This document shows positions 1 to 63,845 of a stretch of 64,000 nucleotides of DNA, one piece after another. The translations under genes were made by a program, and so were the position numbers. The stretch is taken from the NCBI GenBank assembly GCA_051313645.2, contig JBNRSN020000002.1, forward strand, positions 562,898,001 to 562,962,000. Direction: 5' to 3'. How positions within the stretch are numbered: the first letter of the stretch is position 1; each line of letters opens with the position of its first letter. Under the pieces are notes generated by a model. That model was not told where the DNA came from, searched no databases, and saw only the letters and a list, made by a program, of their open reading frames with translations. Source of the DNA: Centroscyllium fabricii (Eukaryota).

Positions 1-2242
1 GGTGAGGTCTGAGTGGGAATGGAACGGTGAATTAAATTGACAGGCCACCGGAAGCTCGGGGTCACCCTTACGGACTGAGTGGTGTGTTCCACAAAGCGAT
101 CACCCAATCTGCGTTTGGTCTCCCCAGTGTAGAGGAGACCACATCGTGAGCAGCGAATACAGTATACTAGATTGCAAGAAGTACAAGTAAATCGCTGTTT
201 CACCTGGAAGGGGTATTTGGGGCCCTGGACAGTGGGAAGGGGGGAGGTGTAAGGGCAGGTGTTGCATCTCCTGCGCTTGCACAGGAAGGTGCCGGGCGAA
301 GGGGAAGGGGTGCTGGGGGTGGTAGAGGAGTGGACTAGGGTGTCTCGGAGGGAGCGGTCCCTACGGAATGCTGAAAGGGGAGGGGAAGATGCGTTTGGTC
401 GTGGGATCACGCTGGAGGTGGCAGAAATGGCGGAGGATGATCCGTTGAATGTGAAGGCTGGTGGGGTGAAAGGTGAGGACAAGGGGAACCCTATCGTGGT
501 TCCGGGAGGGAGGGACAGGGGTGAGCGCTGAAGTGCGGGAGATTGAATGGACCCGGTCGAGGGCCGTGTCAACCACAGTAGAGGGGAATCCTCGGTTGAG
601 GAAAATGGAAGACATGTTGGAAGCACTGGTGTGGAAGGTGGCATCGTCGGAGCAGATGTGGCAGAGACGGAGAAACTGGGAGAATGGATAGAGTCCTTAC
701 AGGAGGCGGGGTGGGAGGAAGTGTAGTCCAGGTAGCTGTGGGAGTCGGTGGGCTTGTAGTGAATGTTGGTCAATAACCTACCCCCAGAGATGGAGACGGA
801 GATGTCGAGGAAGGGAAGAGTCGGAGATGGACCATGTGAAGGTGAGGGAAGGGTGGAAATTGGAGGCAAAGTGAATGAAATTGTCTAGTTCAGGGCGAGA
901 GCAGGAAATGGCACTGATACAGTCATCAATGTATCGGAAAAAGAGGTGAGGGAGGGAACCCGAGCAGGACTGGAACAAAGAGTGTTCCACATATCCCACG
1001 AAAAGGCAGGCACAGCTAAAGCCCATGCGGGTTCCCATAGCAACACCTTTAATTTGGAGGAAATCACTGGAGTCAAAGGAGAAGTTGTTCAATGTGAGAA
1101 CAAGTTCAGCCAGGCGGAGGAGGGTGGTGGTGGATGGGGACTGGTTGGGCCTCTGTTCAAGGAAGAAGCGGAGTGCCCTCAGGCCATCCTGGTGGGGGAA
1201 TGGAGATGTAGAGGGATTGGATGTCCATGGTGAAAAGGAAGCGGTTGGAGCCAGGAAACTGGAAACTGTCGAAGTGGCAGAGGGCGTCAAAAGAGTCACG
1301 GATGTAGGTGGGAAGAAACTGGACAAGGGGAGCAAAGATAGGGACGAGATAGGAAGAGATAAGTTCCATGGGGCAAAAACAGGCTGAAACAATGGGTCTA
1401 CCAGGGCAGTCCTGTTTGTGGATCTTGGGAAGGAGGTAGAAACGGGCTGTGCGGGGTTGGGTGACTGAGGTTGGTGGCTGCGGGGGGGAAATCTCCAGAG
1501 GCGATGAGATCAGTGACAGTCTTGGAAATGGTGGTTTGATGTTCGGTAGTGGGGTCATGGTCCCGGTGGAGGTAGGAGGAGGTGTCGGAGAGTTGGTGTT
1601 CAGCTTCCACTAAGTAGAGGTCGGTTCGCCAAACAACAACAGCGCCACCCTTGTCAACAGGTTTAATGACAATGTCGGGGTTGGATCTGAGAGAATGGAG
1701 TGCTGCAAGTTCAGGGAGGTAGGTTGGAGTGAGTGAGGGGAGCGGAGAAATGGAGACGGCTGATGTTGCAGCGGCAGTTAGCAATGAAAAGATCTAGAGA
1801 GGGTCGGAGGCCAGAGGGAGGGGTCCAGGCGGAACGAGAATTCTGAAAACTGGAGAACGGGTCAGCCGTGTGGGGGGAAGACCCCAGGCCTAAGAAGTGG
1901 GCACGGAGACGAAGGCGTCGGAAAAAGAACTCCGCATCGTGCCGAGCTCGAAATTCATTGAGGTGGGGGCGTGAGGGGATGAAGCTCAGGCCTTTGCTGA
2001 GGACTGATCGTTCAGGGTCAGAGAGGGGAAGGTCAGAGGGGATAGTGAAAACCCGGCAGGGGGTGAGATTGGGAGAAGGGGGGTCAGAGGAAAGTGAAGG
2101 GGAAGAAGGTTCCGGAGGGGCGTTGGTGTTCAAGAGTTGATGAAGCTTGCAATCATTGACAATAGAAAGGAAGAAAAAAAGCTTTTTGTTGAAGCGTCGG
2201 ATGAGTCGAAGGATGAAACGGAACTGTGGACCCGGACAGCTT
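1..2242 (-). mobile_element. Penelope-like retroelement (RT + GIY-YIG endonuclease), frameshifted, runs off window start
   Basis: Minus-strand ORF pieces carry PLE motifs: LSKGLSFIP, DIVIKPVDKGGAVVVW, RFYLLPKIHK..GRPIVSAC, TMDIQSLY, QIKGVAMGTRMG, FRYIDD, VPLVLTFHP. Bases 1-200 translate to a GIY-YIG-like segment (LVYCIRCSRCGLLYTGETKRRLGDRF). Confidence 0.9.
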
Positions 2243-2299
2243 GATGTTTATAACGCCTTCACCGACCCCCTTATCCCAACAGCAGATCATATTGGCACT

Positions 2300-3689: not shown

Positions 3690-4116
3690 ACCATACTGAC
3701 AAGCTGCACCATCTCGGACCGGAAGGCCCTGCAGCGGGTAGTCAAAACTGTCCAACGAATCACCGGCACCCAGCTACCGTCAATTGAATGCACCTACCTC
3801 AAACGCTGCCCACGGAGGTCTCTGAACATTATTAAAGACCCCACACACCCCAGCCACAGTCTGTTCGCCCCCCTTGCCCTCCGGGAGACGCTACAGATCA
3901 ATCCGCACCCGCACGACTAGATTCAAGAACAGCTTCTTCCCCAGGGCTGTCAGCCTCCTGAACTCTAACAAAAAACTCCAGTATCTGCACACCTGAAATG
4001 TACTTTACTGTATGCAATTGTATGTAAATTATTTGCACTACTCTCGGGAGCGGCGAGTCTTCGTTTTGTTGTATTGTACTAGTACTCTGCAATGACAATA
4101 AAACTTGAATTGAATT
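3690..4116 (+). mobile_element. Rex1/Babar LINE 3' fragment inserted in a CR1 fragment (about 3535-4180)
   Basis: Homologous to the 3' end of the Rex1 copy at 53993-55715 (DRKALQRVVKT, RTTRFKNSFFPRAVSLLN). Ends AATAAAAC(TTGAA)n; CR1 sequence resumes after 4117. Confidence 0.8.
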
Positions 4117-10034: not shown

Positions 10035-10382
10035 CAGGTCCGGCACCGTTAATCCGGAAACTTCAGTCGTCCGGAACAAATCCAGCCGACTGGTCTGCGT
10101 ATGTGCAAAATGGCCGCCGCGCTTGACTGCGCATGCCCGGGCCCCTGCCCGACTGGTTGCGCATGCGCAAAATGGCCGCCGCACTTGGCTGCGCATGCCC
10201 AGCCTCTCCCCAAACGATTGATGCTTCGGCGAGCGCATGCGCAGACCATTCAAAATGGCCACCGGCACACGCCATTTTGAATAGTCTGCGCATGCGCTCG
10301 CCGAAGCTTCAATCGTTCGGATTGTTCAGTAGTCCGGCACCGACCTGGTCCCGACCGTGCCTGATTAACGGTGTCGGACCTG
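10035..10382. mobile_element. Tigger/pogo-like MITE
   Basis: TA|CAGGTCCGGCACCGTTAATCCGG ... GATTAACGGTGTCGGACCTG TIRs. Confidence 0.8.
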
Positions 10383-17626: not shown

Positions 17627-18037
17627 CGGGTCCGACACCGTTAATCCGGCACCGGTGGGACTAGGCTGGTGCCGGATTAGTGAAAAATCCGAATGATTGA
17701 AGTTTCGGCGAGCGCATGCGCAGACCATTTAAAATGGCCGCCGCGAAGGCCAGTGCCCATTTTGAATGGTCTGCGCATGCGCTCGCTGAAGCATCAATCG
17801 TTCGGGGAGAAGCCGGATCATGCTCAGCCAAGCGCGGCAGCCATTTTACACATGCGCAGCCAAGCGCGGCGGCCATTTTGCGCATGCACAGACCAGTCGG
17901 GCAGTCGGAGAGAGGCCCGGGCATGCGCAGCCAAGCCCTACGGCCATTTTGCGCACGCGCAGACCAGTCGGCCGGATTCGTTCCGGACGACTGAACTTTC
18001 CGGATTACCGGTGTCCGGATTAACGGTGTTGGACCTG
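17627..18037. mobile_element. Tigger/pogo-like MITE
   Basis: TA|CGGGTCCGACACCGTTAATCCGG ... CCGGATTAACGGTGTTGGACCTG|TA; inverted relative of 10035-10382. Confidence 0.8.
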
Positions 18038-18885: not shown

Positions 18886-19277
18886 GGGTGGCACGGTGGC
18901 ACAGTGGTTAGCACTGTTGCCTCACAGCTCTGGAGACCCGGGTTCAAATCCGGCCTCGGGTGACTATCTGTGTGGAGTTTGCATATTCTCCCCGTGTCTG
19001 CGTGGGTTTCCTCCGGGTGCTCCGGTTTCCTCCCACAGTCCAAAGATGTGCGGGTTAGGTTGATTGGCCAGGATAAATTGACCCTCAGTGTTTGGGGGAT
19101 TGAATATGTGGGGTTACGGGGATAGGGTGGGATATGTGTCGGTGCAGGCTCGATAGGGATCGAGGGATATGGAGAGAGGGCAGGGACAGGGTACTGGGTT
19201 TGGATGATCAGCCATGATCTCATTGAATGGCAGAGCAGGCTCGAAGGGCCGAATGGCCTACTCCTGCTCCTATCTTC
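18886..19277 (+). mobile_element. HE1-type V-SINE, full length
   Basis: tRNA head GGCACGGTGGCACAGTGGTTAGCACTG..GGTTCAAATCC, V-domain, CR1 tail. Confidence 0.9.
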
Positions 19278-19411
19278 TAAAAAGGTCCACTGTACTACCG
19301 GTGTCTTCAGCGCTCTCACTTGAAGATTCACCTTTTCGAATCCACTGCAGTAGAAACGAGAACAGGTTACATTTCTAAATGTGAATTTTCAAATAAATTG
19401 CATTACAATTA

Positions 19412-19900
19412 GGGGAGACGGTGGCGTAGTGGTTATGTCACTAGACTAGTAAGCCAGAGGCTCATTCGAATGCTCTGAGGATATGGGTTCAAATCCCACC
19501 ACGGCAGCTGGTGGAATTTAAATTCGGTTCAATTTAATTCTGGAATTAAATGTTAGTCTTAGTAATGGCGACCATGATACCATTGTTGATTGTTGCAAAC
19601 ACCCATCTGGTTCACTAATGTCCTTTAGGGAAGGAAATCTGCCGTCCTCACCTGGTCTGGCCTACATGTGACTCCAGACCCACAGCAATGTGGTTGACTC
19701 TTAATGCCCTCTGAAATGGCCCAGCAAGCCACTCAGTTGTAAACAACCGCTGCGCAACATTGTGGGTGTACCTACACCATATGGACTGCAGCGGTTCAAG
19801 AAGGCGGCTCACCACCATCTTCTCGAGGGCAATTAGGGATGGGCACTAAATGCAGGCCTAGCCAGCCAGCGACGCCCCCATCCCATCAATGAATTAAAAA
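19412..19900 (+). mobile_element. tRNA-derived SINE (second family), full length
   Basis: A/B boxes; 3' tail GCGGTTCAAGAAGGCGGCTCACCACC...GGGCAATTAGGGATGGGC shared with the LINE at 23460-24815. Confidence 0.8.
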
Positions 19901-19976
19901 AAACAAAGTTATGCCTGGTATATTTGTGTGAAGGTGATTGGTTGGTCGTGACTGCGGCAGATCTGTAACTGATTAG

Positions 19977-20383
19977 ATAAACATAGAAACATAGAAGATA
20001 GGAGCAGGAGTCAGCCATTCGGCCCTTCGAGCCTGCTCCGCCATTCAATGAGATCATGGCTGATCATCCAAACCCAGTACCCGGTCCCTGCCTTGTCCCC
20101 ATATCCCTCGATCCCTATCGCACCTGCACCAACACATATCCCACCCTATCCCCGTAACCCCACATATTCAATCCCCCTAACACTTAGGGCCAATTTATCC
20201 TGGCCAATCAACCTAACCCGCATATCTTTGGACTGTGGGAGGAAACCGGAGCACCCGGAGGAAACCCACGCAGACGCGGGGAGAATGTGCAAACTCCACA
20301 CAAATAGTACCCGAGGCTGGATTTGAACCCAGGCCCCTAGCGCCGTGAGGCAACAGTGCTAACCATTATGCCACCGTGCCGCC
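19977..20383 (-). mobile_element. HE1-type V-SINE, full length
   Basis: Reverse-complement copy of 18886-19277. Confidence 0.9.
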
Positions 20384-24815: not shown

Positions 24816-24877
24816 GTCCGTGCATTGTAGTAACCAGTAAATGGAGTTGCAGTGTTGAGTGTTATATTTGTATTGTG

Positions 24878-25037
24878 CAAGAAGTCACACAACACCAGGT
24901 TATAGTCCAACAGTTTTATTTTAAATCACAAGCTTTCGGAGCTTATGCCCCTTCGTCAGGTGCCCTGACGAAGGGGCATATGCTCCGAAAGCTTGTGATT
25001 TAAAATAAAACTGTTGGACTATAACCTGGTGTTGTGT
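24878..25037. mobile_element. Fold-back PLE-derived mini-element with hammerhead core on both strands
   Basis: About 74-bp near-perfect inverted arms (24887-24960 / 24964-25037), 3-nt loop, 13-bp TSD TATTTGTATTGTG; CTGACGA-AGGGGCATATGCTCC-GAAAGCTTGTGA. Confidence 0.8.
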
Positions 25038-25377
25038 TATTTGTATTGTGTTACTGTGCTTGATTTTTTCATCATGAGTGATTAAAAAGCACATTTAAAA
25101 ATTACTACAGCTACATATTTTCATGGAGATTAGGGCAGAATCTATTAATTTCATTTCTAAAAGGAAAATTAATTCTTGGTAAAGTGTAATTAGCTGTTCC
25201 AAGCCCAGCGGGCTAATATTTTAAAAAGTGTACGCACACTCCAGATGCTTTTCGCTCCACACACAATTCATGTTACCATTGGGTACATTTAGCTTGCTGA
25301 TAGCCACATGCTGTGGAATAATAAAGCCCAGGATGCTTCTTCACTCCATCACCTCACATTACTCCCACCACCCGTGT

Positions 25378-27296: not shown

Positions 27297-28385
27297 AGTA
27301 CAGAAAATGCTGAAAACACTCAGCCGGTCGGGCAGCATCTGTGGAGAGGGAAACAGAGTTAACGGGCCAGAATTTCGGGTTTGCCGGTTGGTGGGCAACT
27401 AGGACCATGCAGAGCCCTTAAGAACCGCACCAACATCGCACTTTTTTTACTCCCAGCATTTCGGCTCGGCTCCGCCCCCTTCCTGCGCAACGTGGCAGTC
27501 CAGCCACGCTAGGAGCGCAGTGTATGCCCCGCCCACAGATTCCAAATTTAAATTAAAAAACGCTCACAGATCCCCAATTTAAATTTAAAAATGCGCACAG
27601 ATCCCGAGTCGGACCTTTGTGAGAGCAGGGACGTGAGGCGCTGCACTCACAGACTCGGCAGTGAGCAGCGCGGCCAGTCCAGCTTTTGACCGAAGGTAAG
27701 TCAGCGATTTTTTCTCTTTGTTTTTTAACTTCACTAAATTAGTTAAAAATGCCAGAACTCTAAATTAAAAAATTAGCGATTTGGATTAGGTATAACAATT
27801 CAAAATCGGATTTGTAAATTTTTTTTTAAAACTTTAACATCAAAATTTAATGATACCGATCTGGCCACATTACTCCCCAAAACTGTTAAAACTTAAAAGT
27901 AAAGGTAAAAAAGTAACTTACCTTGTTTAAGAACGTTTTTCTCTCCCTCACGCACGAGTTACTGCAGCTTTTCTGAAGTGCATCTCAAGGCTCCGTTGCC
28001 CACGGAATCACGCAGCAAACTGACCCTTTTGCACCGGAAATCTTGGGTGCAACTCACTCCTGCGTTTGATGCTGAGGGCCCTTCTCCCTCAGCATCGGAA
28101 ATCTCGGACCCGTGGGCATCTCCCGTGCGTTCATCGCACGGGGCATTTCGTCCGTGGGCATCTGGTTTGAGGCACCCGAAATTCTGGCCCGCGTTTCAGG
28201 TCAGCGACCCTTCGTCAGAACCGGAAGGTGTGAAGAGATGGAATATCTTCCGGTTCTGCTGAGAGATTATCGACCTGAAACGTTAACTCTGTTTCTCTCT
28301 CCACAGTTGCTGCCCGACCGGCGGAGTGTCTCCAGCATTTTTCTCTCTTCATTTCAGATTTCCAGCATCCGCAGTATTTTACTTA
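27297..28385. mobile_element. Inverted PLE pseudo-LTR pair (second PLE family) split by a MITE
   Basis: 27297-27363 plus 28191-28227 is the reverse complement of 28247-28345; minus strand reads GTTCTGACGAAGGGTCGCTGACCTGAAAC. Confidence 0.65.
27364..28190. mobile_element. Harbinger-like MITE (GC-rich ends, AT-rich core)
   Basis: 17-bp perfect TIR GGGCCAGAATTTCGGGT / ACCCGAAATTCTGGCCC. Confidence 0.75.
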
Positions 28386-28639: not shown

Positions 28640-30228
28640 AGGGAGCTCATGGGAACAGGAGTAGTCCATTCAGCCCCTCGAGCCATTCAAGGAGATCATG
28701 GCTGATGACTCATGGAAGAAGATAGGAGCAGGAGTCGGCCATTCGGCCCCTCGAGCCTGCTCCGCCATTCGATGAGATCATGGCTGATCATCCAAACTCA
28801 GCACCCCATACCTGCCCTCTCCCCATATCCCTCGATCCCATTAGCCTTTAGAAACATTGAAACTAGGAGCAGGAGTAGGCCATTCGGCCCTTCGAGCCTG
28901 CTCCGCCATTCAATGAGATCATGGCTGATCATCCAAACCCAGCACCCCGTCCCTGCCCACTCCCCATATCGCTCGATCCCTATCAAGCCTACATCGACAC
29001 ATATCCCACCCTATCACTGTAACCCCACATATTTAATCCCCCTAACACTAAGGGTCAATTTATCATGGCCAATCAACCTAACCCGCACATCTTTGGACTG
29101 TGGGGGGAAACCGGAGCACCCGGAGGAAACCCACGCAGACACGGGGAGAATGTGCAAACTCCACACAGATAGTACCCGAGGCTGGATTTGAACCCGGGTC
29201 TCCAATGCTGTGAGACAACAGTGCTAACCACTGTGCCACCGTGCCGCACAGTGGTTAGCACTGTTGTCTCACAGCACTCCTTCTTGAATATATTTAATGA
29301 ATTGGCCTCCACTGCCTTCTGTGGTAGAGAATTCCACAGGTTCACCACTCTCTGGGTGAAGAAATTCCTCCTCATCTCTGTCCTAAATGGCTTACCCCTT
29401 ATTCTTAGACTGTGATCCCTGGTTCTGGACTCTGCGACCATCGGGAACATCCTTCCGGCATCTAGTTTGTCCAGACCTGTTGTAATTTTATAAGTTTCGA
29501 TGCGATCCCCTCTCATTCGCATAGTGGCATAGTGGTTAGCACTGTTGTCTTACAGCACTAGAGATCCGGGTTCAAATCCAGCCTCGGGTACTATCTGTGT
29601 GGAGTTTGCACATTCTCCCCGTGTCTGCGTGGGTTTCCTCCGGGTGCTCCGGTTTCCTCCCACAGTCCAAAGATGTGCGGGTTAGGTTGATTGGCCATGA
29701 AAAATTGACCCTTAGTGTTAGGGGGATTGAATATGTGGCGTTACGGGGATAGGGTGGGATATGTGTCGGTGCAGGCTCGATAGGGATCGAGGGATATGGG
29801 GACAAGGCAGGGGCGGGTTGCTGGGTTTGGATGATCAGCCATGATCTCATTGAATGGCGGAGCAGGCTCGAAGGGCCGAATGGCCTACTCCTGCTCCTAT
29901 CTTCTATGTTTCTATTCTTCTAAACTCCAGTGAGTATAAGCCCAATCGACCCAATCTCTCATACGTCATTCCTGCCATCCCAGGTATCAGTCTGGTGAAT
30001 CTTCACTGCACTCCCTCCGTGGCAAGAACACCCTTCCTCAGATAAGGCGACCAAAACTGCACACAGTACTCATGGTGTGGTCTCACCAAGGCCCTGTACA
30101 ACTGCAGCAAGACATCCTCGACTCCTGAAAGGTCTGGCTCTAATTTTTAGACTCTGTCCCCTAGTCCTAGAATCCCCAACCAGCGGAAATAGTTTTTCTC
30201 TACCCTATCAGTTCCCCTTAATATCTTG
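28640..30228. mobile_element. Nested CR1 (-) with two opposing HE1 SINEs (28848-29245 -, 29520-29913 +)
   Basis: CR1 ORF2 pieces at 29277-29518 and 29914-30120 join across the SINEs. Confidence 0.8.
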
Positions 30229-32624: not shown

Positions 32625-33469
32625 TCTATCTTAATACCATATTCCTGCTCTTTCCCCATGCCCCTTGACGCCATTTTGCATCAGGAAATCTATCTACCTC
32701 CTTCTTAAATATATTCAGTGACTTGGCCTCTGTGGTAGAGAATTCCATAGGTTCACCACCATCTGAAGAAATTTCTGCTCCTCTCCGTCCTAAATGTCCT
32801 ACCTCGTATCCTGAGACTGTGACCCCCTCGTAATTAAAAGATCTGTTCAAAGGTGGTCAGGGGGTTCTCTCGGTATTCTAGCCAACATTTATCTCTCAAA
32901 CCAACAGCGCCAGAAAAATATCGAACTGGTCATTGGTTCCATTTGTTGTTTCTGGGACCTCTCTGTGCACGGATTGGCGACTGGTGTACCTTTATAACGC
33001 TGGTGACTCATTGATTGTGAATGGCATTGGGACATACTGAGGGCATGATAAGGCAATGTATAAATGCTAGTTACAATCGCAAAATGCGACGGATGCTGGA
33101 AATCTGAAATAACAACAGAAAACGATGGGAACATTCCACGGGTCAGGCAGCATCCGTGGAGGGAGAAACAGACTTAACATCTGTCCTCGATGCTGCCTGA
33201 CCTGCTGAGTGTTTCCAGCATTTTCTGTTGTTATTTTATAAATGCAGGTTCTTTGTTAAGATGCTGAGAGGTTGTTTCCCCTGCCTGGGGAGTCGAGAAC
33301 TAGAGGACACAGTCTCCGGATAAGGGGTTGGTCATTTAGGACTGAGATGAGTAGAAATGTCTTCCCTCAGAGGGTGGTGAATCTTTGGAACTCTCTGCCC
33401 CAGGGGGCTGTGAATGCTCAGTCATTGAGTATCTTCAAGGCTGAGATCGATAGATTTTTGAACTTTAAA

Positions 33470-34699: not shown

Positions 34700-35267
34700 G
34701 GAAGCTCAGCGTAAGCTCGAGGAACAGCTCCTCATCTTCCGATTGGGCACTTTGCAGTCTTCCGGACTTAATATCGAGTTCAACAATTTCAGATCATAAA
34801 CTCAAAATATATATTTTTATATATTTTTTATCCACACCTTTGGTTTGTGCCTTTTCCTTTATTTTTCTCTCCCACAGGGCAGCTGTCTCTCACTCTGCCA
34901 GCGCGTTTCACACTTCATCTCGAGCCGTCCTTTGTCTATTTACCCGTCCTATCACCATCTCGTCTCATCTCGAATATCTCTCAATGTCTCTTCACCTCTC
35001 ACAGACCTTCCCTTTTGTTCTTTCATCCCCTCCCCCGTTTCCCAGCCCCCAAACTTGCCTTTTAATCTGTTTCATTTTCTGCTTTTTTCTCAGTTTTGAC
35101 GAAGGGTTTCGACCCGAAACGTTGACTCTGTTTCTCTCTCCACGGATGTTGCCTGGCCTGCTGAGGTTTTCCAGCGTTTTCTGTTGTTATTTTGTTGCCT
35201 TTATTGTTGCCTGACCTGCTGAGCGTTTTTCTGTTTCTATTTCAAATTTCCAGCGTCTACAGTATTT
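34700..35267 (+). mobile_element. PLE 3' end (endonuclease C-terminus plus pseudo-LTR with degenerate hammerhead)
   Basis: RKLEEQLLIFRLGTLQSSGLNIEFNNF; 35092-35127 AGTT-TTGACGA-A-GGGT-TTCG-ACCC-GAAA-CGTT-GACT. Confidence 0.7.
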
Positions 35268-35520
35268 TAGAAACATAGAAACATAGAAACTAGGAGCAGG
35301 AGTAGGCCATTTGGCCCTTCGAGCCTGCTCCGCCATTCAATGAGATCATGGCTGATCATCCAAACCCAGCACCCTGTCCCTGCCCTCTCCCCATATCCCT
35401 CGATCCCTATCGAGCCTGCACCGACACATATCCCACCCTATCCCCGTAACCCCACACATTTAATCCCCCTAACACTAAGGGTCAATTTATCCTGGCCAAT
35501 CAACCTTCCCCGCACATCTT
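35268..35520 (-). mobile_element. HE1-type SINE 3' half
   Basis: Shared tail and body. Confidence 0.8.
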
Positions 35521-39317: not shown

Positions 39318-40310
39318 ATGGTAAACTTTTGGAAGTTTGTACGGAATTTTCGGCCACTTGAGCTGCACCGGTTGATCTTGTTGCTGATCGCGTTTAGCTT
39401 GATATCCATGTGTTTCTTGGCGTATTACGTGACCAACAGCCCGAAGATTAAGGAGGCCCTGCCCTTGCCCATCAGCGATTGCAACAGCCAGCACAGGATG
39501 TCGCTGCCGCCGCAGTCTCTCAAGCGCTTCATGCCCTCAGTGGACACGTCGAGGACTGACCCCGTGGTCTTGGTTTTTGCCGAAAGTATTTATTCTCAGT
39601 TGGGACAGGAAATCGTGACCATTTTGGAATCCAGCCGCTTTAAATATAGGACAGAAATAGCCCCGGGGAAAGGGGATGTGCCAACCTTGACGGAGAAAGA
39701 TCGGGGCAGGTACGCCCTCATTGTATATGAAAACATTCTAAAATATGTGAACCTGGATGCCTGGAACAGGGAGCTGCTAGATAAATACTGTATCGAGTAC
39801 AGCGTCGGAATTATTGGTTTCTTCAAAGCCAACGAGAACAGTTTGCTCAGCGCACAACTCAAGGGTTTCCCTCTGTACCTGCACTCGAACCTCGGCTTGA
39901 AGGACTACCACATCAACCCCAACGCCCCGCTGCTTTATGTGACGCGAGCCAATGAGGCGGAGCGAGGCCCCCTGCCGGGCGACGACTGGACTGTCTTTCA
40001 GTCCAATCACAGCACCTACGAGCCGGTCCTCCTGGCCAGCACCAAGTCGGCAGAGTTCATCCCCCACCTTAGCACGCACAAAGCGCTGCACGCCACGGTG
40101 GTCCAGGACCTGGGTCTGCACGACGGCATCCAGAGGGTCTTCTTCGGCAACAACCTCAACTTCTGGCTGCACAAGCTGATTTTCGTCGACGCCATCGCCT
40201 ACCTGGCGGGCAAGCGCCTCTGCCTGCCCCTGGACCGCTACCTCCTGGTGGACATCGACGACATCTTTGTGGGAAAGGAAGGGACCAGGATGAAAGTCTT
40301 GGATGTTAAG
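39318..40310 (+). CDS. NDST2: Bifunctional heparan sulfate N-deacetylase/N-sulfotransferase 2, first coding exon (331 codons, phase-0 donor)
   Basis: Kozak [45 protein letters not shown] matches the NDST2 type II membrane anchor; continues [55 protein letters not shown]; ends AAG|GTAAGC at the conserved exon boundary. Confidence 0.95.
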
Positions 40311-41834: not shown

Positions 41835-42615
41835 AGTATTGAATCTGCTTGCCCCAACCTTTCAGGCAGTCCATTCTAGCTCACAAAAAACTCACTGCGT
41901 TAAAAAAAAATTCTCCTCATGTCGCCTCTGGTTCTTTTGCTAATTACCTTAAATGTTAAAGCCGGATTCAAATTCTTCAACTGCCATGGTGGGATTTGAA
42001 CTCTCGTCCGCTGGATTTAGGGTCCATACATAGAACATAAGAAATAAAAGCAGGAGTAGGCCAATCGGCCCCTCGAGCCCGCTCCGCCATTCAATACGAT
42101 CATGGCTGATCTGATCCTAACCTCAAATCTACTTTCACTCTCCATCCCGCCCGAACCCATGTGATCTCCCGGGAGAGGCGAAAAGGTCCAGGAACATAAC
42201 CAGTACAGTAGCAGACCCACTCCCGATGGCGGCTTTCAGGGTGGGTTGATTGGGAATGACTTCTTTGGACCGATGTGAAATTTTAAATCGGCACCAGAAA
42301 ATATTCCACATCCAGCTTTAAGTACTGAAGCGTGATACTTTGATACTTAAAAACAGATTATGTTGATAAATGATCGTTTTATTAATATTTCAATCAAATG
42401 AAGATCTTCTCAGCGGGACATTACGGATTCAGCGGCTCGATTATCTTCGTTTTGAAGCTCATACTTGAATTTTTAAAACTTGTGTTGCATTTAGATTCAT
42501 AAAATAGCTTCAGAGAAACTTGCAGCACAGGAGGAGGCCATTCGGCCCATCATGCTTGTGCCGACTCTTTGAAAGAGCGGTTGCGCTTGGCCCCACTTCC
42601 CTGCTTTCCTTATGG

Positions 42616-43000
42616 AAGAAGTCACACAACACCAGGTTATAGTCCAACAGTTTTATTTGAAATCACAAGCTTTCGCAGCGTTGCTCCTTCGTCAGGTGAA
42701 GTGAAGAGATGCACATAGGCACAGCATATATAGTCAGAGAACAATGCTAGATGATTACAGGTAATCTTTCCAACTGCCCTTTATCACACCAGTTAGAAAG
42801 GGCAGTTAGAAAAATTACCTGTAATCATCTAGCATTGTTCTCTGACTATATATGCTGTGCCTATGTGCATCTCTTCACTTCACCTGACGAAGGGGCAGCG
42901 CTCCGAAAGCTTGTGATTTCAGATAAAACTGTTGGACTATAACCTGGTGTTGTGTGACTTCTTACATTTGTCCACCCCAGTCCAACACCGGCATCTCCAC
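42616..43000. mobile_element. Fold-back PLE-derived element (167-bp inverted arms)
   Basis: Arms 42616-42782 / 42797-42963, 14-nt loop, 3' extension CATTTGTCCACCCCAGTCCAACACCGGC; same family as 24878-25037. Confidence 0.85.
42880..42916 (+). ncRNA. Minimal type-I hammerhead ribozyme motif
   Basis: UCAC-CUGACGA-A-GGGGC(AGC)GCUCC-GAAA-GC-UU-GUGA: stem I UCAC/GUGA, intact core, stem II, palindromic AGCU stem III. Mirror copy on the minus strand at 42663-42699. Confidence 0.7.
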
Positions 43001-43127
43001 GTCACTGCTTTTCCTAGGTTGATGTCTTGCCGATATACTTTGTGGAGCAGGCAGGATTCTAGCGAATTAAATTATATTTTGCTTAAAGATTGCACAGTTT
43101 TATATACTACACAAGACTATTGCATGT

Positions 43128-43353
43128 TGACATGAATCAGTCATTGATGAAAGAAAGGCTTATGAAATAACACTGAGCGGCCTGCGGGTGGCGCTGACCA
43201 GGGAGAGTATAAATACTCGGGCACGGGCCCAGCTTGCTCAGGACATTCTTTAACAGGAACTAGTGAAGGACAACTAGACCTCCATGTTGTAAAACAGTTG
43301 ATTAAAGCTTTGTTTAACGCTTAGACCAAGTGCCTTGGAGTTTTCTTACGTCA
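43128..43353 (+). mobile_element. Solo LTR
   Basis: TGAC...GTCA termini, perfect TSD CATGT, TATAAATA box, ATTAAA; second copy at 60964-61617. Confidence 0.85.
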
Positions 43354-44174
43354 CATGTCTTTCCTTCTCATAATGTTATGTTCAAAAATTTAAGGGGGTT
43401 GGTATTACAGCAGTTAGTGCGTCTACAAGATACACCGCCGCAACTCACCAAGGCTCCTTCGACAGCACCTCCCAAACCCGCGACTTCCACCACCTAGAAG
43501 GACAAGGGCAGCAGGTGCATAGGAACACCACCACCTCCAAGTTCCCCTCCAAGTCACACACCATCCTGACTTGGAAATATATCGGCCTATCCTTCATCGT
43601 CGCTGGGTCAAAATCCTGGAACTCCCTCCCTAACAGCACTGTGGGAGCACCTTCCTCACACGGACTGCAGCAGTTTAAGAAGGCAGCTCACCACCACCAC
43701 CTTCTCGAGGGCAATTAGGGGTGGGCAATAAATGCTGGCCTTGCCAGCGACGCCCACATCCCATAAATGAATTAAAAAAACACCGATAATTATAACTCTC
43801 AGACGCCATCAGCTCATTTTAAAATTTTCGACCTCAAGTTCCTGCACAGTCTACAGTAAAAGAAAGTATCAGCTGATGGGTTCTGGCAGCCTTCAGTCCA
43901 CCTTCCAATTGGCTGCTTCGTTATTAGTGACGACCTCCAATCCCGGTGGCAAAAGCCGACTGTTCTTGTGAAATGCGGACAAGCTGATTTGGGCCAAAAT
44001 GCAGAGTCCGTTAAAATGCTGACGGCTGTCATTTATATATCCCAGCATTCACACTCGGCCGACATTCTGAAATTTAGATGAACTTTATTTTGATGAACAT
44101 TTTTTTAACGTCCTACTGTAGATTAACAGTAAACCAGAGAAACAAATCTCCCCAGTTAAGAAGCAATGTCTTTC

Positions 44175-44560: not shown

Positions 44561-45188
44561 ATCAGAGAGCTAAATGTTGCTTCCTTTCATAGCATCATAC
44601 AGCACAGAAGGAGGCCATTTGGCCCATCGTGCCTGTGCCGGCTCTTTGAAAGAGCTCTCCAATTAGTCCCACTCCCCTGCGCGTTCCCCACAGCCGTGCA
44701 GGTTGATACATGATACATAGAAACATAGGAGCAGGAGTCGGCCATTCGGCCCTTCGAGCCTGCTCCGCCATTCAATGAGATCATGGCTGATCCTCTATCT
44801 CAATACCATATTCCCGCTCTCTCCCCATACCCCTTGATGCCTTTTGTGTCTAGAAATCTATCGATCTCCTCCTTAAATATATTCAGTGACTTGGCCTCCA
44901 CAGCCTTCTGTGGTAGAGAATTCCACAGGTTCACCACCCTCTTAGTGAAGAAATTTCTCCTCATCTCAGTCCTAAATGTCCTACCCCGTATCCTGAGACT
45001 GTGACCCCCTCGTACTCGACCACTCAGCCAGGGGAAACATCCTCCCTGCATCCAGTCTGTCTAGCCTTGTCAGATTTTTATACGTTTCAATGAGTTATTA
45101 TCGAGTCATCGAGTTTTCCAGCACAGAAAGAGGCCCTTCGGCCCATCGTGTCCGCGCCGGCCATCAAGCCCTGTCTATTCTAATCCCA

Positions 45189-45254
45189 GAAGTCACACAA
45201 CGACTTCTTGCATTTGTCCACCCCAGTCCAACACCGGCAACTCCACATCATGCA
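45189..45254 (+). mobile_element. Minimal fold-back PLE remnant
   Basis: GAAGTC-ACACAAC-GACTTC plus the same 3' extension as 42964-43000; 13-bp TSD TATTCTAATCCCA (45176-45188 / 45255-45267). Confidence 0.75.
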
Positions 45255-45975
45255 TATTCTAATCCCATTTTCCAGCACTTGGTCCGTAGCCTTGTATGCT
45301 ATGGCATTTCAAGTGCTCATCTAAATGCTTCTTGTATGTTGAGAGAGTTCCTGCCTCTACCACCCTTTCAGGCAGTGAGATCCAGATTCCATATATTGCA
45401 GGATTGCTGCAGCTTCCTCAATATTTGCACCCTCCACCCCCACCAGAGCAGGTTTTAAAGGCAATTCTTATTTAAAATGCAAGTTATTTGAAACTATTAC
45501 ACTTGGAATACAGTAGAATTGTGACCGAGCGAATGCTCCAGCTTCTGCTGAAGAGTATTCTTTTACATAGAATGCACAATTTGAACAGGTTGAAAAATGA
45601 CTTGGGACTGCCAGAATAATCGCCAGTCGTTTACTTTGCGTAACTTGCCCCCAGGCAAGTTTTCAAGGCGACTCTTTAATATGCAAGTTATTTGAAACTA
45701 TTACAGACACACAGAGGTCTGCAGGGAGGATGGTGATGGCTTGGCAGTGCGTCCCTTGCGACATCATCTTGAAATGTACAATAGAGGCAAGCGCATTTTT
45801 TTGGAATGGGGGAAGGGAAGCTGGGAGCGAAAAGCTGGCGTGGAGGGAAATTCCACTGAAACGTTTTCCTCCGCAGTCATTGATCCCTCTGCAGTTTATT
45901 ACCCCCTGCGCGGCCGCCGCTGGTGAACGACCTGCGCGGGAGCGCGAGATTGATGCACGGCCGCAGTGGCTTCTC

Positions 45976-48989: not shown

Positions 48990-50490
48990 CAGCCAGTGGC
49001 TCAGTGGGCAGCACCCTCGCCTCGGAGTCAGAAGGTTGTGGGTTCGAGTCCCACCCCGGAGACTGGAGCACAAAAATCTAGGCTGACGCTCCAGTGCAGT
49101 GCTGAGGGAGTGCTGCACTGTCAGAGGTGCCGTCTTTCGGATGAGACATTAAACCGAGACCCCGTCTGCCCTCTCAGGTGGACGTAAAAGATCCCATAGC
49201 CACTATTTCTAAGAGGAGCATGGCAGTTATCCCCGGTGTCCTGGCGCCAATATTTATCCCTCAATCAATTGCTTTTTAATCTGTTCCATTTCCTGCTTTT
49301 TTCCCAGTTCTGACGAAGGGTCTTTGACCTGAAACATAGAAACATTGAAGATAGGAGCAGGAGTAGGCCATTCGACCCTTCGAGCCTGCTCCGCCATTCA
49401 ATGAGATCATGGCTGATCATCCAAACCCAGCACCCTGTCCCTGCCTTCTCCACACATCCCTATCGAGCCTGCACCGACACATATCCCACCCTATCCCCGT
49501 AACCCCACATATTCAATCTCCCTAACACTAAGGGTCAATTTATCATGGCCAATCAACCTAACCCGCACATCTTTGGACTATGGGAGGAAACCGGAGCACC
49601 CGGAGGAAACCCACACAGACACGGGGAGAATGTGCAAACTCCACAGAGACAGTCACCCGAGGCTGGATTTGAACCCGGGTCTGCTAGAAACATAGAAACT
49701 AGGAGCAGGAGTAGGCCATTCGGCCCTTCAAGCCTGCTCCGCCATTCAATGAGATCATGGCTGATCTTTGGCTGAGATCATGGCTGATCTTTCAAGTTCA
49801 GTACCCCGTCCCCGCCTTCTCTCCGTAACCCTTAATCCCTTTAGCCTGAAGAAATATATCCAATTCCCTCTTAAATATATTTAATGAACTGGCCTCCACT
49901 GCCCTCTGTAGCAAGGAATTCCACAGGCTCACCACTCTCTGGGTGAAGAAATTCTTCCTCGTATCTGTCCTAAATGGTTTACCCCTTATCCTTAGACTGT
50001 GGCCCCTGGTTCTGGACTCCCCCGACCATCGGGAACATTCTTTCTGAATCTAACCTGTCCAGGCCTGTCAGAATTTTATATGTTTCGATGAGATCCCCTC
50101 TCAATCTTCTAAACTCCAGCGAGTACAAGCCCAAACTACACAATCTCTCCTCGTAGGTCATTCCTGCCATTCCAGGTATCATCCTGGTGAATCGTTAACT
50201 CTTATTTCTCTCTCCGCCGATGCTGCCTGGCCTGCTGAGTTTTTCCAGCGTTTTCTGTTGTTATTTTGGATTTCCAGCATCCGCAGTATTTTACTATCCT
50301 AACAAAACACAAAATTATTTGGTCATTATCACATTGCTGTTAGTGGGAGCTTGCTGTGCGCAAATTGGCTGCCGCGTTTCCCACATTACAACAGTGACTA
50401 CACTTCAAAAAGTACTTCATTGACTGTAAAGCGCTTTGGGACGTCCGGTGGTCATGAAAGGCGCTATAGGAATGCAAGTCTGTCTTCTTT
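48990..50490 (+). mobile_element. Deu-domain SINE split by a PLE fragment, itself split by an HE1 SINE and CR1
   Basis: SINE 48990-49268 resumes at about 50300; PLE 49270-49335 resumes at 50193. Confidence 0.7.
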
Positions 50491-53992: not shown

Positions 53993-55715
53993 TTCAATTC
54001 AATTCAATTCAATTCAATTCAATTCAAGTTTTATTGTCATTGCAGAGTACTAGTACAATACAACGAGACGAAGACTCGACTCTCCCGAGAGTAGTGCAAA
54101 TAAATTACGTGCAAATTGCATACAGTAAAGTACATTATCAGGCGTGCAGGTACCGGAGTTTCTTTTTAGAGTTCAGGAGGCCGACAGCCCTGGGGAAGAA
54201 GCTGTTCTGAAATCTAGTCGTGCGGGTGCGAATTGCTCTGTAGCGTCTCCCGGAGGGCAAGGGGGCGAACAGACTGTGGCTGGGGTGTGTGGGGTCTTTA
54301 ATAATGTTCAGAGACCTCCGTAAGCAGCGTTTGAGGTAGATGCTTTCCATTGACGGTAGCTCTGTACCGGTAATTCGTTGGGCAGTTTTGACTACCCGCT
54401 GCAGGGTTTTCCGGTCCGAGATAGTGCAATTTCCATACCAGACAGTGATGCACCTTGTCAGTATGCTTTCCAACTTCTACCGCTGCACAATAGAGAGGAT
54501 GCCGGATGACAGCCTGGCTTTCTTCAGCTTCCTTAGGAAGTACAGGCGCTGTTGGGCCGTCTTAACCAGAGAGGAGGTGTTTAGTGACCAGGAGAGATCT
54601 TCCGAGATGTGGACCCCAAGGAACTTGAAGCTGGACACCCTTTCCACCTCAGCCCCTTGGATGAAGATGGGGGTGTGTCTTCTGCTTCCAGTCCTCCGGA
54701 AGTCCACTATGATCTCCTTGGTTTTCTTGGTGTTCAGTGCCAGGTTGTTGTCGGCACACCAACCCACAAGGCGCTGGATCTCATCCCTGTAGGCTGACTC
54801 GTCGTTGTTGGTGATCTGGCCAACCACCGTGGTGTCATCCGCGAACTTGATGTTCGTGTTGGAGCCATGGACAGCCGCACAGTCGTGAGTGAAGAGGGAG
54901 TAGAGGAGGGGGCTCAGCACACAACCTTGTGGGGCCCCCGTGTTCAGGGTAAGGCGGGGGGAGGTGAGGTTGCCTAACTTCACAGACTGTGGTCTGTTGG
55001 TTAGGAAGTCCAGGGTCCAGTTGCAGAGGGAGGTGTTCAGGCCGAGGGTGAGGAGTTTGGTAGACAATTTGCTGGGGACGATGGTGTTGAATGCTGAGCT
55101 GTAGTCAATAAACAGCATTCTGATATATGTATCTTTGCTATCCAGGTGGTTTAGTGCAGAGTGAAGAGCCGTAGTGATAGCATCTTCTGTAGATCTGTTC
55201 CCACGGTAGGCGAACTGGTATTGGTCCAGGGCGGCGGGGATGCTGGCTTTGATGTGGGCCAGGACCAGCCGCTCGAAACACTTCATGATAATGGGTGTAA
55301 GTGCAACAGGGCGGTAGTCGTTCAGGCACGTCACGGCCGTTTTCTTGGGCACAGGGATGATGGTGGCGGTCTTGAAGCAGGTAGGGACAGCTGCCTTCTC
55401 CAGTGACAGGTTGAAGATGTCAGTGAAGACTTCAGCCAGTTGGTCGGCACATTCTTTGAGTGCCCGGCCGGGGATGCCATCAGGACCCGTGGCCTTCCGT
55501 GCGTTCACTCTACGTAGAGCACCTCTAACGTCGGAGCAGGACAGTGTTAATGGCTGGTCTTCCGGGGATTGCAGGACTTTGGTGGCTGGCTCCTTGTTGT
55601 CCCTGTCGAAGCGAGCGTAGAAGTTGTTGAGTTCCTCCGGTAGGGAGGCATCGCCGGTCGGGGGGCTGGTGTTTCTGCACTTGTAGTCCGTGATGGACTG
55701 TATGCCTTGCCACAT
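53993..55715 (-). mobile_element. Rex1/Babar LINE, 5' truncated, RT frame nearly intact, inserted in a V-SINE
   Basis: [64 protein letters not shown]; (TTGAA)n tail at 53993-54026. Confidence 0.92.
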
Positions 55716-61617: not shown

Positions 61618-62309
61618 GGGTTTATAACAATTTATTTTAGCAGCAGACTGATGAAATCTGTAGATATTAAGTAGAAGCAGCTTCAGTCACTGGTCTAGTT
61701 TTTGATTTCAGCCAGATGGGGCAGGGGCGACCACCGCTAACCCCCGTAATCCTAGAGTAAGGTGAGGGGACGAAAATGACACCAGCTTTTTGCTCCTGAT
61801 TGCGACTCAGCAGCCATGGGCTTGAAGCACGCTGGCGTGAATATTTGGTGATCCCAGGATTGTTCTCCGCTGTAATAACAGCAGAAAGTGCTGGAAACGC
61901 TCAGCAGGTCAGGCAGCGTCGAGGAGAAAGCAACCGAGTCAACGTTTTGGGTCGAACCCTGTTTCTCTCTCCTCAACGCTACCTGGCCTGCTGAGTGATT
62001 CCAGCATTTTCTGTTGTTAACTTCAGATTTCCAGCATGCGCAGTATTTTGCTATTGATCTCAGCTGTGCTTTCGTGGTTGAACCTCCCCACCTGATCTGA
62101 TATAAGAATGGTTTGGGGTACCAGAATGTGGTTGCAAGCGGAGCCCAGTGGTGACTTGGGGTGGGGGGGCGGGTGATGAGGGTGTGGGGGTTGGAGGGAA
62201 GGAATGCCAGATACAGGAAACTCTCTTTTAACCGGCACCCGCATATCTAGAAATCTCTCTTAACCGGCAAAATTCAGGAGTAGGTTCAGGTATGTTTTAC
62301 TAGGTATTA

Positions 62310-62980
62310 GTGGTCATGTAACCGGGGTTCCTGCACCTGTGGCCGTGTAACCGGGACTCCTGGATCTGTGGCCGTGTAACCGGGGTTCCTGCATCTGCTC
62401 CGCCATACGGCCCCTCGAGCCTGCTCCACCACTCGGCCCCTTGAGCCTGCTCCACCATTCGGCCCCTCGAGCCTGCTCCACCATTCGGCCCCTCGAGCCT
62501 GCTCCACCACTCGGCCCCTCAAGCCTGCTCCACCACTCGGCCCCTCGAGCCTGCTCCACCACTCGGCCCCTCGAGCCTGCTCCACCACTCGGCCCCTCGA
62601 GCCTGCTCCACCACTCGGCCCCTCGAGCCTGCTCCACCACTCGGCCCCTCGAGCCTGCTCCACCACTCGGCCCCTCGGGCCTGCTCCACCATTCGGCCCC
62701 TCGAGCCTGCTCCACCATTCGGCCCCTCGAGCCTGCTCCACCATTCGACCCCTCGAGCCTGCTCCACCATACGGCCCCTCGAGCCTGCTCCACCACACGG
62801 CCCCTCGAGCCTGCTCCACCACTCGGCCCCTCGAGCCTGCTCCACCACTCGGCCCCTCGAGCCTGCTCCACCACTCGGCCCCTCGAGCCTGCTCCACCAC
62901 TCGGCACTTCGAGCCTGCTCCACCATTCGGCCCCTCGAGCCTGCTCCACCATTCGGCCCCTCAAGCCTGCTCCACCATTC
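62310..62980. repeat. Minisatellites: 3 x 29 bp (62310-62396) then about 22 x 26 bp derived from the CR1 tail
   Basis: 26-bp unit CGGCCCCTCGAGCCTGCTCCACCA(C/T)T; runs directly into CR1 tail sequence (AAGATCATGGCTGATC) at 62984. Confidence 0.95.
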
Positions 62981-63845
62981 AGTAAGATCATGGCTGATCT
63001 TCAACCTCAACTCCGCTTTCCCGCCCGATCCCCATCAATGTTCCCCGTTCGCTGCCAGTTCCCCACGCGGCACGCTTCCTTTAAAGCGCAGTCCCTTTAA
63101 ATTTTTGGCGTGCGTGGTATTTACAATGGAAAAGCCGGCGAGTGGCCTGCGTGGGAGCTTTCCCATTACTGCGTGGTCATGCAGCTTAGAGGGAACATTG
63201 ATCTTCATATCCCTTGATTCCCCAGACTCCAAAAATCTATCGATCTCAACCTTGAACATACTCAATGACTGAGCATCTACAGCCCGCCAGGATGGAGAAT
63301 TCCAAAGATTCACCACCCTCTGAGTGAAGAAATTCATCTCATCTCAGTCCTAAATGGTCGCCCCCCTTATCCCTGAGACTGTGAACCCCCCAGTTCTAGA
63401 TTCTCCAGCTGGCATTTGTGGATCAATGCCAAATGTATTTATATGCCGTTCCTTTGCCTGGGGATGAATTTACTACGTTAAAGGCATTATATAAAGGCAT
63501 GTTGTTTTAATTTGACACCAGTGTAAGCGTAGGAATGTCGTACATACACGTTAAGCCTTCATCTGTTAGAATCATAAAGCGTTCCAGGACAGCAACAGGG
63601 CACTTGGACATTGAGTCTGCACCATAATCGCACTCTCCTGCTCGCTCCCCGTCCCCATTCATATTCCTGTTTTTTTCAAGCAACAATTGAAATCACTTTT
63701 AAAATAATTTACCTACCCAGCTTTGACAACAGCTTAATGTCGGCAACAGCCATTTCCAGGATTATGCATCTTAGCTACTTTGTACAGTAAAGCCAAACCA
63801 AAACTATATATACTCAAATCAAAAACCTGATGGGGCCGTGCCCCA

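What the first reader, a model, noticed from the sequence alone, without database searches (positions are those of the whole stretch)
42616..43000. Fold-back Penelope derivative carrying a hammerhead ribozyme motif on each strand
Seen: a 348-bp palindrome with 167-bp arms. Each arm contains UCAC-CUGACGA-A-stemII-GAAA-GC-UU-GUGA (+ 42880-42916; - 42663-42699), with a complete hammerhead core, stem I, stem II and a self-complementary AGCU in place of stem III. Established: PLE pseudo-LTRs carry minimal hammerheads thought to cleave as dimers, and PLE insertions can be inverted. Inference: this is a non-coding ribozyme-bearing hairpin retroposon. A transcript from either strand contains one ribozyme and its antisense, so the long hairpin would compete with ribozyme folding. 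It lies about 2.3 kb downstream of the NDST2 coding exon, within the pre-mRNA.
Basis: partly seen in the sequence, partly recalled or inferred. Interest (0 to 1): 0.75.

Follow-up and report, generated by a model that had tools for sequence, protein, structure and literature searches.

The report
Truncated Penelope retrotransposon stump, shark intron
This 390-base mirror-image stretch is one of very many stumps likely left when a Penelope-type retrotransposon inserts its ribozyme-bearing end twice, head to head; the pattern is already described, and the ribozyme is predicted to be silenced here.

Summary
The palindrome and both hammerhead motifs are real and at the stated coordinates; one arm's stem II carries a mismatch. 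It is best read as an ordinary, heavily 5'-truncated Penelope-like element (PLE) insertion: inverted pseudo-LTR, direct pseudo-LTR, a 41-bp tail at one end and a degenerate target duplication. It does not look like a hairpin that spreads as a unit. Two more copies in the window share the outer end but have different centres and arm lengths. In public contigs the arms lie 10^4-10^6-fold above single-copy depth, this centre at only 0-16-fold. Opposite-strand minimal hammerhead pairs 100-700 bp apart (Cervera and de la Pena 2014) and inverted pLTR plus tail (Arkhipova 2013, Craig 2021) are in print. Both ribozymes lie in the later-transcribed arm, so read-through RNA is predicted to bury them, and opposite-strand copies cannot dimerise in cis. 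The inversion likely forms by priming on both target strands (inferred). The parent coding element was not found; cleavage and expression are untested. This scan noted the same pattern in two other shark genomes. Interest is low.

The parts
42601..42615 (+). Left copy of a degenerate ~14-bp target-site duplication, at the end of a high-copy repeat fragment (CR1/SINE-type tail, label recalled)
   Evidence: Aligns with 43005-43018; 0.8% of 3000 random window pairs scored as high. The repeat fragment matches another copy at 44586.
42616..42790 (-). Inverted, 5'-truncated pseudo-LTR copy without tail (mirror part 42616-42782; parent-like sequence runs on to 42790)
   Evidence: In all 4 runs, contigs of other copies leave the reference behind 42790 with the same letters (table 7).
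42663..42699 (-). Minimal type I hammerhead motif, core intact, stem II broken by a G-G mismatch at 42676
   Evidence: The family majority letter at 42676 restores the pair (table 3).
42790..42799 (+). Inversion junction: a 10-nt word repeated from 42803-42812, likely a locally templated insert from end joining
   Evidence: Depth at 42796 is 52/78/0/11 in the four runs (table 4).
42797..42963 (+). Direct, 5'-truncated pseudo-LTR copy
   Evidence: depth falls from the outer end towards the centre (table 2).
42847..42879 (+). TATA-like run (42847-42853) and Inr-like TCACT (42875-42879), mirrored on the minus strand at 42726-42732 and 42700-42704; promoter activity untested
   Evidence: Positions; a similar arrangement is described for an Adineta Penelope pLTR (PMC3846280).
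42880..42916 (+). Minimal type I hammerhead motif: 4-bp stem I, CUGACGA core, bulged A, 5-bp stem II with one G-U, GAAA, palindromic AGCU, predicted cut after U42912
42964..43004 (+). 41-bp one-sided 'tail'; right boundary of the insertion
   Evidence: Also present in the copy at 45202-45250; 415 contigs of run X2 diverge behind 43004 with low agreement (table 7).
43005..43018 (+). Right copy of the degenerate target-site duplication
24878..25037 (.). Second family copy: fold-back with ~79-bp arms and a 3-nt centre right at the hammerhead, no tail, exact 13-bp duplication (24865-24877 / 25038-25050)
45188..45254 (+). Third family copy: 14 bp of inverted end, 7 bp of direct end, full tail, no hammerhead, exact 12-bp duplication (45176-45187 / 45255-45266)
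39318..40310 (+). Host context: coding exon of an NDST-family gene ending in a GT donor; the element is inferred to lie in the following intron
   Evidence: PDB NDST1 E=2e-148; Pfam HSNSD_N; donor sequence.

Best explanation
It is likely a dead-on-arrival stump of a very abundant Penelope-like retrotransposon: two independently truncated copies of the ribozyme-bearing pseudo-LTR end sit head to head, one with the 41-bp tail, between likely duplicated target bases, and the ribozyme is predicted to be silenced by its own antisense arm. Likely origin (inferred, about 0.55): the element's nuclease cut both target strands about 14 bp apart. One 3' end primed reverse transcription at the end of the tail and the other at the pseudo-LTR end 41 nt further in. 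Both cDNAs stopped after about 170-210 nt and were joined, leaving a short templated duplication at the junction. The palindrome is therefore rebuilt at each insertion and is not inherited as a unit. In a read-through transcript of either strand the antisense arm is made before the ribozyme arm, so the RNA would be a ~167-bp duplex, a likely target for editing or silencing rather than self-cleavage. A host function is not indicated.
For: Shown: (1) Three copies in the window share the outer end within a few bases but have three different centres and arm lengths; 2 of 3 carry the tail, always on one side; 2 of 3 have exact 12-13-bp duplications and this one a degenerate one. (2) In public contigs of 4 runs from three organisms, summed depth over the folded arms is about 2e4-2e6 times the single-copy flank and falls from the outer end to the centre, as 5' truncation predicts. 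Depth at the centre (42796) is 6, 16, 0 and 1 times single copy (order of magnitude only). (3) 15 of 472 joints were displayed; their inverted arms (27-88 bp) and direct arms vary with offsets from -91 to +56, and 4 of the 15 go from the inverted arm straight into the tail, like the copy at 45188. A tail-only arm cannot template the inverted arm, nor the reverse. (4) A second hammerhead-bearing repeat family forms head-to-head pairs at three more places in the window. (5) In print: dual minimal hammerheads 100-700 bp apart on opposite strands (PMC4209133); inverted truncated copy plus 30-40-bp tail (PMC8557442; PMC3846280); a PLE protein that cuts and extends both strands and starts at two RNA sites bracketing the tail (PMC11167929). 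(6) P(stem II) is 1e-12 to 1e-16 for read-through RNA at 5 of 5 lengths tested.
Against: No reverse transcriptase ORF could be linked to this family: the decayed RT/GIY-YIG frame at 1-2250 shares no DNA with it above chance, and two metagenome scans gave nothing and one chance hit. PLE membership therefore rests on architecture. The target duplication of this copy is degenerate. The displayed joints have short sides (19-29 nt), and tail-only joints could also be later deletions from longer palindromes. One displayed joint (42658 to 42884) has depth 1490 and 990 in the two organism-A runs, about 170-200 times single copy, which could mean that some fold-backs do multiply as units. No listed contig bridges either flank junction of this copy in organism A, and 43020-43101 is uncovered there. 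A transcript starting inside, at the Inr-like site, would lack the antisense arm and is predicted to form stem II (P 0.62-0.98), so silencing is not certain.
Confidence: 0.87

Rival explanations
1. Same identity, different origin of the inversion: one cDNA folds back on itself (self-priming), copies itself, and the endonuclease resolves the hairpin 41 nt short of the end, leaving the one-sided tail. The 0.3 refers to this step only.
For: Proposed in print: self-priming inferred from palindromes at inverted junctions (PMC3846280) and endonuclease resolution for the tail (PMC8557442). Both arms share a family variant at the mirrored positions 42714/42865, where about 55% of run-X1 depth has the other letter, as a single template predicts. 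Some displayed joints are near-symmetric (offsets -1 and +1).
Against: Here the tail-less arm is 8 nt longer at the centre than the tail-bearing arm. 4 of 15 displayed joints, and the copy at 45188, have little or no mirrored sequence on the tail side. The purified anole PLE protein extends both strands.
Confidence: 0.3
2. A non-autonomous hairpin retroposon, transcribed and re-inserted as one palindromic unit by the PLE enzyme.
For: Both ends carry the pLTR end and one carries the tail, the likely cis signal. TATA-like and Inr-like motifs are present in both arms. A different junction recurs at about 170-200x depth in organism A.
Against: This centre is at 0-16x single-copy depth. 3 of 3 window copies have different centres. 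The arms differ at 6 positions, one of which breaks stem II. The promoter-like motifs point outwards, so they would not transcribe the whole unit. Contig mean depth can be inflated by words lying wholly inside an arm.
Confidence: 0.07
3. A domesticated intronic regulator of the NDST gene: self-cleavage, small-RNA hairpin or antisense promoter.
For: It lies 2.3 kb behind a coding exon, on the inferred pre-mRNA; the plus-arm motif is formally intact; the minus-arm promoter-like motif points towards the exon.
Against: Tens of thousands or more of similar ends exist, so an intronic position is expected by chance. The element appears absent at the matching site in organism F (inferred from one contig). 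The best Rfam miRNA match is 53.8 bits against a cut-off of 150. Substitutions look unconstrained.
Confidence: 0.04
4. Assembly or library fold-back artefact.
For: No listed contig spans the element or its flank junctions in organism A; long palindromes are error-prone.
Against: The arms differ at 6 sites, end at the family boundary, carry a tail on one side only and sit in different flanks with a duplication. One contig at single-copy depth is laid across 42796 in each of two organism-A samples, with a 2-nt insertion (table 4).
Confidence: 0.02

Closest known systems
Complex insertions of endonuclease-bearing Penelope-like elements: inverted pLTR plus tail (Arkhipova et al. 2013, PMC3846280; Craig et al. 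2021, PMC8557442)
   Same: Head-to-head inverted truncated copy, one-sided tail (41 bp here, 30-40 bp described), target duplication, pLTR of about 200 bp with TATA-like and TCACT motifs.
   Different: No ORF at all: both copies stop inside the pLTR, so the whole insertion is a 390-bp palindrome plus tail. The parent element was not identified here.
Minimal hammerheads of metazoan PLEs (Cervera and de la Pena 2014, PMC4209133)
   Same: Short stem I, bulged base between positions 9 and 10.1, G10.1-C11.1, palindromic 15-16 positions, no stem III. Pairs on opposite strands 100-700 bp apart are reported there, for Schistosoma.
   Different: Stem II has 5 bp rather than the 7-8 bp of the Schistosoma families; cleavage of this sequence is untested; sharks are not named in the parts read.
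Poseidon PAc of Anolis (Frangieh et al. 2024, PMC11167929)
   Same: Tail defined by two end points; hammerhead in the pLTR, which there needs the element's protein to cleave and is dispensable for insertion in vitro.
   Different: In PAc the ORF starts at stem II and the tail lies over 100 nt into the ORF; here no open frame runs through hammerhead and tail. The parts read do not address inversions.
Non-LTR retrozymes of animals (bioRxiv 10.64898/2026.07.22.740005)
   Same: Non-coding, PLE-derived, type I hammerhead, found in the one chondrichthyan sampled there.
   Different: Retrozymes are head-to-tail tandems with ribozymes on one strand that can release unit-length RNA; this is head-to-head with one ribozyme per strand.

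Membership tests
EN+ Penelope-like element insertion | RT plus GIY-YIG ORF in the element or in a linked parent | tested here: inconclusive
   No ORF in this copy. A decayed RT/GIY-YIG frame at 1-2250 is not linked by DNA. No parent was retrieved; no whole genome is held.
EN+ Penelope-like element insertion | Terminal pseudo-LTR carrying a minimal hammerhead | tested here: met
   Core intact in 4 of 4 arms that reach it; descriptor hits 3 against 0 in 100 shuffles.
EN+ Penelope-like element insertion | Inverted 5'-truncated copy in head-to-head arrangement | tested here: met
   variable centres in 3 of 3 window copies and in 15 displayed of 472 joints.
EN+ Penelope-like element insertion | 30-40-bp tail at one end only, optional | tested here: met
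   41 bp here, present one-sided in 2 of 3 copies; boundary at 43004.
EN+ Penelope-like element insertion | Target-site duplication | tested here: met
   Exact 13 and 12 bp in the other two copies; degenerate ~14 bp here, null fraction 0.008.
EN+ Penelope-like element insertion | Dispersed copies with variable 5' truncation | tested here: met
   Folded depth falls from the outer end to the centre in 4 of 4 runs.
Minimal type I hammerhead ribozyme | CUGANGA / GAAA / UH core with stems I and II and palindromic positions 15-16 | tested here: met
   Fully met by the plus arm; the minus arm has one stem II mismatch. No Rfam hammerhead model matched.
Minimal type I hammerhead ribozyme | Self-cleavage as dimer or with protein help | not testable with these tools
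   Folding only: an AGCU-centred homoduplex of -4.3 kcal/mol against -67.6 for pairing with the antisense arm.
Non-LTR retrozyme | Head-to-tail tandem units, each with a ribozyme on the same strand | tested here: not met
   One motif per strand; no tandem units.
MITE / self-propagating fold-back element | Fixed internal sequence and symmetric ends shared by many copies | tested here: not met
   The centre differs among copies and is near single-copy depth; the ends are asymmetric because of the tail.
Known miRNA precursor | Rfam score above the gathering cut-off | tested here: not met
   MIR1027 53.8 bits against 150; mir-4742 25.3 against 85.

The most novel reading that the evidence does not exclude
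Some fold-backs of this family escape being dead ends and are re-mobilised as non-autonomous palindromic retroposons (one other junction recurs at about 170-200x single-copy depth). The outward-facing promoter-like motifs in each arm would then make short RNAs free of the antisense arm, in which the hammerhead folds and cleaves in trans or with the PLE protein, including an antisense RNA aimed at the NDST exon.
Probability: 0.08. Interest if true: 0.6.

Novelty: new member of a known kind. Interest (0 to 1): 0.2.

Why it matters
The copy itself matters little: it is one of very many stumps with a published architecture. The family is useful as material. How Penelope-like elements make their inverted ends is unsettled (self-priming versus endonuclease resolution in print; one full-text search for Penelope, twin priming and inverted listed two papers on other subjects, seen as listings only). 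A genome with this many short fold-backs, each recording two truncation points, a tail and a target duplication, lets the two-primer model be tested by counting. It also implies a large load of perfect intronic RNA duplexes in these genomes.

Tried and rejected
No whole genome is held for the window, so no genome-wide BLAST or orthologue check was possible. Rfam gave no hammerhead family, only sub-threshold miRNA-type hairpin matches. Two metagenome pattern scans for a parent element gave 0 loci and 1 locus, L001, a bacterial-looking contig sharing only the 20-nt pattern, dropped as chance. Pfam found no family in 3 of 3 fragments of the decayed frame at 778-2247; its RT and GIY-YIG motifs were read by eye from the translation (labels recalled). 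No RNA holder was listed among 21 runs, which says nothing on expression; 4 of the 21 were laid, all as contigs. The hole at 43020-43101 in organism A proves nothing. The bacterial promoter scan is irrelevant to this host and found nothing. Five of the 6 arm mismatches are A/G changes on the sense strand; I considered editing of the template RNA and dropped it as too few to test. Table 3 showed 40 of 117 variant rows, none inside the catalytic core, so core conservation across the genome is inconclusive. Lunse et al. (RNA Biol, dimer cleavage) is not held and is known only through the review PMC6765202. Searches for Penelope, shark and hammerhead ribozyme and for shark genome, Penelope and palindrome listed no paper describing this family; Repbase, Dfam and paper supplements were not seen and may hold it. 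Look-ups of earlier scan notes by sequence and by place returned nothing.

Full report
Observation. The window holds a 348-bp palindrome at 42616-42963 with 167-bp arms, a 14-nt loop and 6 mismatches inside the arms. It folds at -308.5 kcal/mol, and 0 of 100 shuffles fold as well. Each arm carries a hammerhead core on its outward-reading strand (+ 42880-42916, - 42663-42699). A descriptor asking for the core, stem I, stem II and a self-complementary stretch in place of stem III found 3 sites in 64 kb with one stem II mismatch allowed and 2 with none, all in this family, and none in 100 shuffled windows. The plus-arm motif is formally complete. The minus-arm motif has a G-G mismatch in stem II where most family copies keep the pair. 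Rfam listed 7 weak matches at E<=5, none a hammerhead. An NDST-family coding exon ends 2306 bp upstream with a GT donor. The name NDST2 and the host being a shark are recalled from sequence likeness and were not tested by a call.

Full anatomy. The insertion runs from 42616 to 43004. The right arm continues into 41 bp (42964-43004) that have no mirror on the left. Behind 43004, 415 contigs of run X2 diverge with low agreement, which marks the family boundary. The flanks 42601-42615 and 43005-43018 look like a degenerate 14-bp duplication; 0.8% of 3000 random pairs scored as high. At the centre, contigs of other copies in all 4 runs follow the left arm to 42790 and then continue with the same unrelated letters. 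The left arm is thus parent sequence to 42790, 8 nt beyond the mirror of the right arm's start. The junction holds a 10-nt word repeated from 42803-42812. Each arm has a TATA-like run 22 nt before TCACT, just ahead of stem I, an arrangement described for a rotifer Penelope pLTR; activity is untested.

Other copies. BLAST of the element against the window finds two more. At 24878-25037 the arms are about 79 bp, the centre is 3 nt and lies right at the ribozyme, there is no tail, and the duplication is an exact 13 bp. At 45188-45254 there are 14 bp of inverted end, 7 bp of direct end, a full tail, no ribozyme and an exact 12-bp duplication. The outer end is shared within a few bases; the centre differs in 3 of 3. 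A second repeat family with a hammerhead-like core forms head-to-head pairs at three further places.

Public runs. Of 21 listed runs, 4 were laid on 42200-43400 at 85% likeness: two samples of organism A and one each of organisms C and F. Summed depth over the folded arms is about 2e4 to 2e6 times that of the unique flank and falls from the outer end towards the centre in 4 of 4 runs. The tool warns that this is no copy number, so it is an order of magnitude only. At 42796 depth is 52, 78, 0 and 11, or 6, 16, 0 and 1 times single copy. This centre is not amplified. Of 472 joints, 15 were displayed. Their inverted arms are 27-88 bp, offsets from symmetry run from -91 to +56, and 4 of 15 land inside the tail. 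Their short sides are 19-29 nt, so single rows are weak. One joint (42658 to 42884) has depth 1490 and 990 in organism A, which counts against the claim that no fold-back is ever multiplied; it may also be inflated by words inside an arm. In organism F one contig at depth 15.4 covers 42997-43122. Its match begins where the tail end resembles the left flank (42593-42612), and its remaining 79 letters on that side are not listed on the tail. I infer an empty site in F; this was not displayed directly. No listed piece bridges the flank junctions in organism A, but one single-copy-depth contig per sample is laid across the centre with a 2-nt insertion.

How it most likely arose and behaves. Shown: architecture, variable centres, one-sided tail, duplications, truncation gradient. 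Inferred: a PLE ribonucleoprotein nicked both target strands and primed twice, once at the end of the tail and once at the pLTR end, and the two short cDNAs were joined head to head. This follows the purified anole PLE protein, which cuts and extends both strands and starts at two RNA sites bracketing the tail (PMC11167929). It explains why the tail is one-sided, why the tail-less arm can be the longer one, and why some copies have a tail with almost no mirrored sequence. Self-priming of one cDNA with endonuclease resolution is the published alternative and stays open at about 0.3. In read-through RNA of either strand the antisense arm comes first; P(stem II) was 1e-12 to 1e-16 at 5 of 5 transcript lengths, and pairing with the antisense arm is -67.6 kcal/mol against about -10 for the ribozyme fold. 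The two motifs cannot form the dimer in cis. An RNA starting at the Inr-like site would lack the antisense arm; stem II is then predicted at P 0.62-0.98 and stem I at 0.10-0.97 depending on length. These are equilibrium predictions, not measurements.

Comparison with what is known. Cervera and de la Pena 2014 (PMC4209133; parts 1-2 of 4 read) define the minimal motif, report pairs 100-700 bp apart on opposite strands and many truncated single copies, and find no monomer cleavage and low dimer cleavage. Craig et al. 2021 (PMC8557442; passages) and Arkhipova et al. 2013 (PMC3846280; passages) describe the inverted truncated copy, the 30-40-bp tail and palindromes at inverted junctions. Frangieh et al. 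2024 (parts 1-2 of 4 read) show that the anole hammerhead needs protein and is dispensable for insertion in vitro. The retrozyme preprint (10.64898/2026.07.22.740005; part 1 of 5 and passages) defines retrozymes as tandem units, which this is not. Passages of PMC6765202, PMC6155905 and PMC2377424 add that PLE ribozymes are slow even as dimers and that the Drosophila element has an internal TATA-less promoter. Lunse et al. was not available. No supplements were read. It works like, and by architecture is, a truncated PLE insertion; the coding parent was not found, so the clade is unassigned.

Verdict. Real, correctly described and ordinary: a new instance of a known insertion pattern. Two earlier notes of this scan reached the same reading in other shark genomes; they came after my own reading and are not independent support. 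Interest 0.2. The remaining value is the family as a large natural sample for testing how Penelope inversions form.

Noticed in passing
window 1-2250 (-): Decayed, frameshifted Penelope-like ORF with a YIDD motif, a cysteine-rich linker and a GIY-YIG-like end (Neptune-like by recalled features). Pfam found nothing in three fragments. Not linked by DNA to the family studied.
   Followed up: partly
window 27300-28381, 33092-33237, 61874-62019; single copies at 35096-35270, 49310-49334, 50189-50293: A second repeat family with a hammerhead-like core and a varied stem II, also in head-to-head pairs; the pair near 28200 appears split by an ~830-bp insertion.
   Followed up: partly
joint 42658 to 42884 in runs X1 and X2: One fold-back junction with a 5-nt insert has depth about 170-200 times single copy in both organism-A samples: the best lead for a multiplied fold-back.
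   Followed up: no
window 43128-43349: Another high-copy repeat, apparently missing at the matching site in organism F (one contig at the same depth on both sides).
   Followed up: no
window 10210-10320 and 17689-17805: Two related ~110-bp palindromes with 49-50-bp arms, unrelated to the Penelope ends; possibly a MITE-type family.
   Followed up: no
window 4056-4105 and 54024-54079: Two related short palindromic ends centred on GTACTAGTAC.
   Followed up: no
window 18963-20308 and 28849-29914: Long inverted pairs (317 and 396 bp, 94-95% complementary) made of repeat fragments.
   Followed up: no
window 62300-63270: Long tandem-like array built from a short repeat unit, giving repetitive open frames on both strands.
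   Followed up: no
window 42657-42922: 5 of the 6 arm mismatches are A/G on the sense strand; too few to test for editing.
   Followed up: partly
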